From a virus, in UHGV virus genome UHGV-0147800: DNA of 19,405 nucleotides. The stretch is one strand, 5' to 3'. A program made the position numbers and the translations under genes. Within the stretch, counting starts at the first letter, position 1; each line of letters starts with the position of its first letter. Shown piece by piece: positions 8,388 to 8,819 of the stretch. Below the pieces are notes generated by a model, which saw only the letters and a list, made by a program, of their open reading frames with translations, was not told the origin of the DNA and searched no databases.

Positions 8388-8576
8388 TCAGAATGGTAAT
8401 TCGGATGGGGAGGAAAGAAACTCACGCTCATTCATGCGCTCTCTTTGTGCCTGCCATAAGCAAAGTTGTTTCTTTGATTTATCTCCCGCTTTACGCCAGT
8501 AACGAGCCTCAGCAATGTGATATTCTCTTTTTAATCGACTTAACTCTGGAGTTTTCGCCAGTTCTACCGGAATCAT
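8388..8576 (-). CDS. Hypothetical protein (62 aa)
   Basis: ATG at 8574-8576 preceded by GGAGG (GGAGGTCAAA-ATG) and overlapping the kil stop (ATGA). The track ORF starts 12 nt further upstream without an SD. Confidence 0.55.
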   Translation of the reverse strand: MIPVELAKTPELSRLKREYHIAEARYWRKAGDKSKKQLCLWQAQRERMNEREFLSSPSELPF

Positions 8577-8686
8577 TTTGACCTCCATTTTCTGTAGGCT
8601 TCGACGGCCTCACGAAACATCTTTTCATCGCCAATAAAAGCGGCGATAGTGAATTTAGTCTGGATAGCCATAAGTGTTTTATCCAT
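8573..8686 (-). CDS. kil: Kil-like host-killing/division-inhibition protein
   Basis: Internal start of the track ORF gives MDKTLMAIQTKFTIAAFIGDEKMFREAVEAYRKWRSK (37 aa), matching recalled lambda Kil at the N-terminus. Start overlaps the cIII stop. Confidence 0.7.
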   Translation of the reverse strand: MDKTLMAIQTKFTIAAFIGDEKMFREAVEAYRKWRSK

Positions 8687-8819
8687 TCTTTGGGACTCCT
8701 GGCTGATTAAGTATGTCGATAAGGCGTTTCCATCCGTCACGTAATTTACGGGTGATTCGTTCAAGTAAAGATTCGGAAGGGCAGCCAGCAACAGGCCACC
8801 CTGCAATGGCATATTGCAT
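8679..8819 (-). CDS. cIII: CIII (FtsH inhibitor stabilising cII)
   Basis: ATG at 8817-8819 with SD AAGGAG. Product MQYAIAGWPVAGCPSESLLERITRKLRDGWKRLIDILNQPGVPKNG matches recalled lambda CIII over its whole length, though 46 aa versus about 54. Confidence 0.85.
   Translation of the reverse strand: MQYAIAGWPVAGCPSESLLERITRKLRDGWKRLIDILNQPGVPKNG

What the first reader, a model, noticed from the sequence alone, without database searches (positions are those of the whole stretch)
8573..8819. cIII and kil are shorter than their lambda counterparts with altered C-termini
CIII here is 46 aa and Kil 37 aa, against roughly 54 and 47 aa recalled for lambda. Both keep the conserved N-terminal and central regions, but the C-termini differ and the genes overlap each other and the next gene. 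These may be natural variants or truncations with functional consequences for FtsH inhibition or FtsZ targeting.
Basis: partly seen in the sequence, partly recalled or inferred. Interest (0 to 1): 0.2.

Follow-up and report, generated by a model that had tools for sequence, protein, structure and literature searches.

The report
Common short cIII and kil alleles
The short CIII (46 aa) and Kil (37 aa) genes are real, but they are a widespread, already described natural allele pair found in working phages such as HK620, HK629 and JEP4, so the finding is ordinary.

Summary
cIII is 8679..8819 (-), 46 aa; kil is 8573..8686 (-), 37 aa; lambda has 54 and 47 aa.

- **CIII:** residues 1-46 are identical to lambda. 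The early stop comes from one C-to-A change (lambda TCA Ser47 to TAA, window base 8680), which also makes Kil Q3K.
- **Kil:** similarity to lambda ends after Trp34, at the start codon of the downstream gene. There lambda's gam-bet-exo module is replaced by an HK620-type hkaM/Sak4/SSB/abc2 module, so the Kil tail (RSK) is set by the neighbouring module.
- **Core domains:** both proteins match their whole Pfam models, and the cIII mRNA thermoregulator (Rfam RF01804) is intact.
- **Distribution:** identical-length alleles occur in HK620, HK629 and JEP4. The HK620 GenBank record already notes a cIII shortened by an internal stop codon. The exact proteins are on about 1000 or more contigs each. 229 of 5426 complete E. 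coli genomes carry the short-Kil junction.
- **Function:** the 37-aa HK629 Kil was tested as a form starting at Met6. It blocks division in a ZipA-dependent way (PMC11762379). CIII residues 14-37 suffice for activity (PMC1838920).

This is not a defect and not new.

The parts
8679..8819 (-). cIII, 46 aa, FtsH-inhibitory lysogeny factor; residues 1-46 identical to lambda CIII
   Evidence: ORF and translation. Pfam PF02061 at 106.1 bits covers the whole model, 1-42/42. PHROG 550. DNA alignment to lambda.
8680..8680 (-). Single-base difference from lambda (C->A on the coding strand) with two effects: CIII Ser47 TCA -> TAA stop, and Kil Gln3 CAA -> Lys AAA
   Evidence: Alignment A1, column 186. 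JEP4, HK620 and HK629 carry the same base.
8573..8686 (-). kil, 37 aa, FtsZ-ring/cell-division inhibitor, ending in RSK
   Evidence: ORF. Pfam PF06301 at 74.2 bits covers the whole model, 1-31/31. PHROG 3924. AF2 model has helix 3-18, turn at G19-D20, helix 21-36, mean pLDDT 94.3.
8774..8832 (-). cIII mRNA thermoregulator / alternative-structure element around the cIII start codon
   Evidence: Rfam RF01804 Lambda_thermo, 88.5 bits against a gathering score of 50, full length 1-59/59. Sequence identical to lambda here.
8583..8584 (.). Mosaic junction: the last base shared with lambda is 8584 (first base of Kil codon 35), just after the ATGGA shared by the lambda gam start and the upstream ATG of the hkaM-like ORF
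   Evidence: blastn of window against lambda: the match is 8584..8878. Megablast coverage breaks at query base 65, which is window 8584. Alignment A1.
8584..9036 (-). Lambda-homologous island (about 97% identity) holding kil codons 1-34, cIII, its leader and upstream intergenic DNA. The 400-bp ea10 segment of lambda is absent at 8878/8879.
   Evidence: blastn of window against lambda locus L002: 8584-8878 matches 2229-2523 and 8879-9036 matches 2924-3081.
8388..8576 (-). hkaM-like ORF, 62 aa (66 aa from the ATG at 8588), first gene of the replacement recombination module. Its ATG overlaps the kil stop (ATGA), and a GGAGG lies inside the kil 3' end.
   Evidence: 98.4% identical to HK620 hkaM. 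PHROG 1723. Sequence read directly.
7699..8379 (-). Sak4-like ssDNA-annealing ATPase (HK620 hkaL type)
   Evidence: 99.1% identical to HK620 hkaL. PHROG 2872 at E 1e-107. Pfam AAA_24. HK629 RefSeq annotation.
7115..7702 (-). Phage SSB-like protein (HK620 hkaK type)
   Evidence: 97.9% identical to HK620 hkaK. PHROG 743.
6795..7091 (-). Abc2 anti-RecBCD protein
   Evidence: Pfam PF11043 at 121.7 bits.

Best explanation
These are intact, functional cIII and kil genes of a lambdoid prophage, integrated next to torS, that carries a common natural allele pair. CIII is short because of one nucleotide difference from lambda, which creates a stop after Gly46 and removes only the non-conserved 8-residue tail. 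That tail in lambda is encoded entirely inside the overlap with kil. Kil is short because the lambda-like DNA ends at the start codon of the downstream gene. There the gam-bet-exo recombination module is replaced by the HK620-type hkaM/Sak4/SSB/abc2 module. The residues after Trp34 are therefore read from a different neighbour and end quickly in RSK. The 46-aa CIII is inferred to keep its amphipathic helix (residues 14-37) and act as a competitive FtsH inhibitor that protects CII. The 37-aa Kil is inferred to keep its helix-turn-helix core and disrupt FtsZ rings in a ZipA-dependent way.
For: Shown here:
- CIII 1-46 is 100% identical to lambda, and a single C->A change creates the stop.
- Homology with lambda breaks at 8584, at the downstream start codon.
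- In every fetched locus with enough flank, a 37-aa Kil goes with a downstream hkaM (34 of 34), and all but four of the longer Kil forms with gam.
- Both proteins match their full Pfam models and score as well as the lambda prototypes: 106.1 vs 105.4 bits and 74.2 vs 72.3 bits.
- Rfam Lambda_thermo is intact.
- The AF2 model of Kil is a helix-turn-helix with pLDDT 94.
- Alleles of identical length occur in the phage genome records of HK620, HK629 and JEP4. The HK620 record notes 'protein shorter than similar proteins due internal stop codon'.
- The exact proteins were seen on 1000 (the counting cap) and 999 contigs.
- 68 of 233 phage records and 229 of 5426 complete E. coli genomes carry the short-Kil junction.
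- RefSeq annotates both as ordinary CDS, not pseudogenes.
- Diverged E. coli and Salmonella CIII homologues (73-93% identity) also end at ...NG.

From the literature:
- HK629 Kil' blocks division and needs ZipA, and lambda Kil lacking its last 11 residues is still active (PMC11762379).
- CIII residues 14-37 are essential and sufficient for activity (PMC1838920 citing Kornitzer 1991).
Against: No experiment was done on this exact prophage, and whether it is inducible is unknown. The window Kil differs from the tested HK629 Kil at two residues (A16 vs T, V28 vs I). The published test used a His-tagged form starting at Met6, not the full 37-aa peptide. Lambda Kil lacking 11 C-terminal residues was about 10-fold less efficient at removing Z rings, so tails can matter quantitatively. 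No direct assay of a 46-aa CIII was found in the searchable literature.
Confidence: 0.9

Rival explanations
1. The two genes are decaying: a nonsense mutation in cIII and a truncated kil in a defective prophage, with partial or complete loss of FtsH inhibition and FtsZ targeting.
For: cIII does carry a premature stop relative to lambda. The window is a chromosomal prophage whose viability was not tested. Lambda Kil deltaC11 is about 10-fold weaker at removing Z rings.
Against: The same alleles occur in the sequenced phages HK620, HK629 and JEP4. They are seen on about 1000 or more contigs each and in diverged Salmonella and E. coli lineages. The core domains and the cIII RNA regulator are intact. 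There are no frameshifts or further lesions. HK629 Kil' is active.
Confidence: 0.04
2. The short forms are functional but quantitatively different. Losing the CIII tail would change its half-life or potency against FtsH. The very short overlaps (cIII stop 5 nt after the kil ATG; kil stop fused to the hkaM ATG) would couple translation of cIII, kil and the Sak4 module more tightly than in lambda.
For: The overlap geometry can be read directly. The stop allele and the short Kil are mostly linked but also occur apart. The RSK/RSSK motif is proposed to matter for Kil potency.
Against: There is no direct evidence. The linkage is explained by the two sites lying about 100 nt apart. kil keeps the same upstream AGGAG as lambda, so it has its own ribosome-binding site. 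The CIII tail is not conserved between lambda and P22 and lies outside the Pfam model.
Confidence: 0.15
3. A sequencing or assembly error produced an apparent stop and a false junction.
For: None specific.
Against: Identical sequence is found in many independent complete genomes and phage records.
Confidence: 0.01

Closest known systems
Phage HK620 cIII and kil (GenBank AF335538), with the same alleles in HK629 and JEP4
   Same: Same lengths (46 and 37 aa), same stop-creating base, same RSK Kil tail, and the same downstream hkaM/hkaL(Sak4)/hkaK(SSB)/abc2 module. DNA is about 95% identical over 6137-9012.
   Different: One CIII residue (I35 here, V in HK620) and two Kil residues (A16/V28 here, T16/I28 in HK620). 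Different genes lie upstream of cIII: an Nmad5 gene here, hkaP/hkaQ in HK620.
Lambda CIII (54 aa) and Kil (47 aa)
   Same: CIII residues 1-46 are identical. Kil residues 1-34 are 88% identical (30 of 34). Gene order in the pL operon is the same, the genes overlap, and the cIII thermoregulator RNA is the same.
   Different: Lambda CIII has 8 extra C-terminal residues (SNTYGYPD). Lambda Kil has a 13-residue tail read from the gam overlap. Lambda has gam-bet-exo downstream and ea10 upstream.
P22 C3 (52 aa) and HK022 CIII (about 44 aa) and HK022 Kil (50 aa)
   Same: They show that CIII and Kil length varies among well-studied temperate phages. P22 C3 is in Pfam Lambda_CIII, and the HK022 Kil-like ORF is in Lambda_Kil.
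   Different: P22 C3 has a different tail (PSHDYCAC). P22 Kil belongs to an unrelated family (DUF5444). HK022 CIII falls in a separate Pfam family (PF08134).

Membership tests
Lambda_CIII (PF02061), FtsH-inhibitory lysogeny factor | Sequence match to the family model above the curated threshold, over the whole model | tested here: met
   106.1 bits against a cut-off of 25.7; residues 2-43 match model positions 1-42 of 42. Lambda itself scores 105.4.
Lambda_CIII (PF02061), FtsH-inhibitory lysogeny factor | Intact residues 14-37 (amphipathic helix, essential and sufficient for activity) | tested here: met
   Residues 1-46 are identical to lambda. The definition of the region comes from PMC1838920.
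Lambda_CIII (PF02061), FtsH-inhibitory lysogeny factor | Location in the leftward early operon, downstream of N and immediately upstream of kil, with the cIII mRNA regulatory structure | tested here: met
   The N-like gene is at 9726..10070 (-). Rfam RF01804 lies at 8774..8832 (-) with 88.5 bits.
Lambda_CIII (PF02061), FtsH-inhibitory lysogeny factor | Inhibits FtsH and stabilises CII | not testable with these tools
   Needs a CII half-life or lysogenisation assay. Inferred from identity of the active region.
Lambda_Kil (PF06301), cell-division inhibitor peptide | Sequence match to the family model above the curated threshold, over the whole model | tested here: met
   74.2 bits against a cut-off of 27.6; residues 2-32 match model positions 1-31 of 31. 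Lambda Kil scores 72.3.
Lambda_Kil (PF06301), cell-division inhibitor peptide | Helix-turn-helix core with a G19-D20 turn | tested here: met
   The AF2 single-sequence model has helix 3-18 and helix 21-36, mean pLDDT 94.3. This matches the AlphaFold 3 description in PMC11762379. It is a prediction, not a solved structure.
Lambda_Kil (PF06301), cell-division inhibitor peptide | Basic RSK/RSSK motif near the C-terminus | tested here: met
   The peptide ends ...KWRSK. The motif is described in PMC11762379.
Lambda_Kil (PF06301), cell-division inhibitor peptide | ZipA-dependent disruption of FtsZ rings | not testable with these tools
   Shown for HK629 Kil', which has 2 residue differences from this peptide within the shared region (PMC11762379). 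Not tested for this exact sequence.

The most novel reading that the evidence does not exclude
The short alleles are not neutral. Removing the CIII tail and swapping the Kil tail would shift CIII stability or potency and Kil strength. The near-abutting stop and start codons (cIII TAA 5 nt after the kil ATG; kil TGA fused to the hkaM ATG) would couple translation of kil and the Sak4 recombination module to the thermoregulated cIII start. That would give this phage lineage a different lysis-lysogeny and filamentation set point from lambda.
Probability: 0.12. Interest if true: 0.25.

Novelty: already known. Interest (0 to 1): 0.05.

Why it matters
It matters little. The case is a tidy example of two known principles. 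First, lambdoid mosaic junctions sit at gene starts, so a small overlapping gene (kil) takes its C-terminal tail from whichever module lies downstream. Second, one base in a dual-coding overlap can change two proteins at once: CIII Ser47 to stop, and Kil Q3K. Practically, it warns against calling these short ORFs pseudogenes. It also warns against annotating the 79-aa out-of-frame extension as Kil, as the HK629 RefSeq record does.

Tried and rejected
I used an exact-sequence cluster look-up instead.
- The species-representative genome scan for the cIII/kil junction returned only the lambda allele. The hits were low-coverage contigs of unrelated bacteria, apparently lambda DNA contamination, so it gave no host-range information.
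- tblastn of lambda CIII and Kil against HK022 found nothing. Reading the ORFs and scanning Pfam showed why: HK022 CIII belongs to a separate family, PF08134. The same scan found an HK022 Kil-family ORF of 50 aa.
- The first P22 region I fetched was the wrong part of the genome and was refetched.
- The pseudogene or decay reading was rejected, as was sequencing error (see rivals).
- The 79-aa ORF 8573..8812 in the kil frame is judged an out-of-frame upstream extension through cIII rather than a longer Kil. The Kil family model starts at the Met at 8686, the same frame is open in lambda where Kil is 47 aa, and an AGGAG lies 9 nt upstream of that ATG.
- PADLOC gave no hits for the unannotated genes next to the repressor.
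- A literature search for HK620 plus cIII plus kil found no open paper discussing the short cIII. The evidence for prior description is the GenBank note.

Full report
**Observation**

On the minus strand the window encodes cIII at 8679..8819 (46 codons plus TAA) and kil at 8573..8686 (37 codons plus TGA). Lambda's annotated genes translate to 54 aa (CIII) and 47 aa (Kil).

The genes overlap. cIII and kil share 8 nt. The kil stop is fused to the ATG of the next ORF (ATGA at 8573-8576), and an alternative upstream ATG lies at 8588. Lambda overlaps the same genes by more: 32 nt for cIII/kil and 46 nt for kil/gam. Overlap as such is normal for this region.

One detail needs correcting. The CIII C-terminus is not altered but simply absent: residues 1-46 are 100% identical to lambda. 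Only Kil has a genuinely different tail.

**What caused the two length differences**

A DNA alignment of the window, lambda and phage JEP4 shows that the sequence from upstream of cIII through kil codon 34 is nearly identical to lambda. A later blastn gives 8584..8878 at 97.6% identity with 7 mismatches.

The cIII stop is a single C-to-A difference. Lambda reads AAT GGA TCA (N G S) and the window reads AAT GGA TAA (N G stop), at window base 8680. The same base lies in kil codon 3 and changes CAA (Gln) to AAA (Lys). One nucleotide therefore accounts for both CIII(1-46) and Kil Q3K.

For Kil, similarity to lambda stops abruptly at 8584, immediately after a shared ATGGA. In lambda that ATG is the gam start codon (MDINTETEIKQK...). 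In the window it is the upstream ATG of a small ORF, which continues MEVKMIPVELAK.... The junction between lambda-like and non-lambda DNA thus sits at a gene start. Kil residues after Trp34 are read, in another frame, from whichever gene lies downstream. In lambda this gives ILILKLRSSKSIH; here it gives RSK and a stop.

**The downstream module**

The genes that replace gam-bet-exo are:

| Window (-) | Product | Evidence |
|---|---|---|
| 8388..8576 | 62-aa hkaM-like ORF | 98.4% identical to HK620 hkaM; PHROG 1723 |
| 7699..8379 | Sak4-like ssDNA-annealing ATPase | 99.1% identical to hkaL; PHROG 2872, E 1e-107 |
| 7115..7702 | SSB-like protein | 97.9% identical to hkaK; PHROG 743 |
| 6795..7091 | Abc2 anti-RecBCD | Pfam PF11043 |

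Searches show the same module in HK620 and HK629. Across all fetched loci with enough flanking DNA, a 37-aa Kil is always followed by hkaM (34 of 34). All but four of the longer Kil forms (47, 50, 54 or 73 aa) are followed by gam. Kil length is therefore a direct read-out of the neighbouring recombination module.

**Are the core domains intact?**

- The 46-aa CIII matches the whole Pfam Lambda_CIII model (positions 1-42 of 42) at 106.1 bits. Lambda's own protein scores 105.4.
- The 37-aa Kil matches the whole Lambda_Kil model (1-31 of 31) at 74.2 bits. Lambda's scores 72.3.
- The missing residues lie outside what is conserved in either family.
- Rfam finds the cIII mRNA thermoregulator element (RF01804) at full length over the cIII start, 8774..8832 (-), at 88.5 bits against a gathering score of 50.
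- A single-sequence AlphaFold2 model of the 37-aa Kil gives helix 3-18, a turn at G19-D20 and helix 21-36, with mean pLDDT 94.3. This is the helix-turn-helix described for lambda Kil (PMC11762379).

**Distribution**

- **Named phages.** The same lengths occur in HK620 (P22-like), HK629 (lambda-like) and JEP4. The HK620 GenBank record from 2001 already states for cIII: 'protein shorter than similar proteins due internal stop codon'.
- **Exact sequences.** The exact 46-aa CIII was seen on 1000 contigs (the counting cap) and the exact 37-aa Kil on 999. Source names include 'MULTISPECIES ... Enterobacteriaceae'.
- **IMG/VR sample.** 120 contigs, plus the window, JEP4 and lambda, gave 123 sequences. 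Of these, 29 have the 46-aa CIII. Three more have a 48-aa form with a different N-terminus and the same ...PKNG end. Thirty-one have the 37-aa Kil.
- **Linkage.** The two polymorphisms are usually found together but also occur apart: 54-aa CIII with 37-aa Kil three times, and the stop allele with lambda-type Kil three times. This is as expected for sites about 100 nt apart in recombining phages.
- **Phage and E. coli collections.** 68 of 233 matching phage records carry the short-Kil junction. So do 229 of 5426 complete E. coli genomes, out of 1520 with any lambda-type kil.
- **Annotation.** RefSeq annotates both as ordinary CDS, for example in a torS-adjacent prophage of E. coli CE10 with the same layout as the window.
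- **Age of the short form.** CIII homologues only 73-93% identical, from E. coli and Salmonella, also end at ...NG. The short form is old and stable, not a recent lesion.

**Other reference phages**

P22 C3 is 52 aa with yet another tail (PSHDYCAC), and P22 Kil belongs to an unrelated family, DUF5444. HK022 CIII is about 44 aa and falls in a separate Pfam family (PF08134). HK022 has a 50-aa Lambda_Kil-family ORF with different ends. Length variation at the termini is the rule in these small proteins.

**Function (inferred, with published support)**

Naha, Cameron and Margolin (PMC11762379) describe the 37-aa HK629 Kil. They showed that its Met6-start form (Kil') inhibits E. coli division, disperses Z rings and needs ZipA. 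They also showed that lambda Kil lacking its last 11 residues is still active, although about 10-fold less efficient. They propose that the RSK/RSSK motif matters for potency. The window's Kil differs from HK629 Kil at two residues: A16 for T, and V28 for I, the latter as in lambda.

For CIII, residues 14-37 are reported as essential and sufficient for activity (Kornitzer 1991, as cited in PMC1838920). They are identical here.

The most likely mechanism is therefore the standard one. CIII competitively inhibits FtsH and protects CII. Kil blocks FtsZ-ring assembly through ZipA. I could not test either activity, and a modest quantitative effect of the missing tails is not excluded.

**Rivals**

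- Gene decay in a defective prophage is unlikely (about 0.04). The alleles are present in sequenced phages and across diverged lineages, and nothing else in the genes is damaged.
- Sequencing error is excluded by the many independent occurrences.
- The only open reading with any novelty is quantitative tuning: CIII half-life, Kil potency, or tighter translational coupling because the stops now abut the next starts. There is no evidence for it beyond the geometry of the overlaps.

**Verdict**

This is the HK620/HK629-type cIII-kil allele pair. It arises from one dual-coding point difference and from a module junction at the start of the downstream gene. Novelty: already known. Interest: very low.

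Noticed in passing
window 8878/8879: Relative to lambda and many Stx2 phages, the 400-bp segment carrying ea10 is missing. Lambda homology jumps from locus L002 position 2523 to 2924 with no gap in the window.
   Followed up: partly
window 9041..9664 (-): A Nmad5-family (nucleotide modification associated domain 5, PF18757, 239.7 bits) gene sits between cIII and N, where lambda has ea10/ral. The same gene is present in the E. coli CE10 prophage.
   Followed up: no
window 50..2794 (-) and 2889..3962 (-): The window starts in the host gene torS (TMAO sensor kinase). A lambda-type integrase and an excisionase-sized ORF follow, so this is the left end of a prophage inserted next to torS, as in E. 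coli CE10.
   Followed up: partly
window 8573..8812 (-); HK629 locus L124 2554..2793: The kil frame stays open upstream through cIII and gives a 79-aa ORF. The HK629 RefSeq record annotates that long ORF as Kil and leaves cIII unannotated. This looks like an annotation artefact.
   Followed up: partly
window 10503..11123 (-) and 11120..11608 (-): Two co-oriented genes lie immediately downstream of the CI/LexA-like repressor (11605..12252), in the position lambda uses for rexAB. They have no Pfam or PADLOC hit and match only PHROGs of unknown function (5820, 5893). They are possible prophage-expressed exclusion or defence genes.
   Followed up: partly
loci L128-L145 (genome-contig hits): All 18 species-representative genomes matching the cIII/kil junction are non-enteric organisms (Shewanella, Pseudomonas, Enterococcus, Bradyrhizobium and others). 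They carry the lambda allele on contigs that are mostly low-coverage (about 1x), some about 48.4-48.5 kb long. This appears to be lambda DNA contamination of assemblies.
   Followed up: partly
protein P0054; PHROG 2461: A rare 72-aa in-frame fusion of CIII residues 1-23 to full-length lambda Kil exists in public data. PHROG 2461, labelled Kil, matches CIII with its N-terminal part and Kil with its C-terminal part.
   Followed up: no
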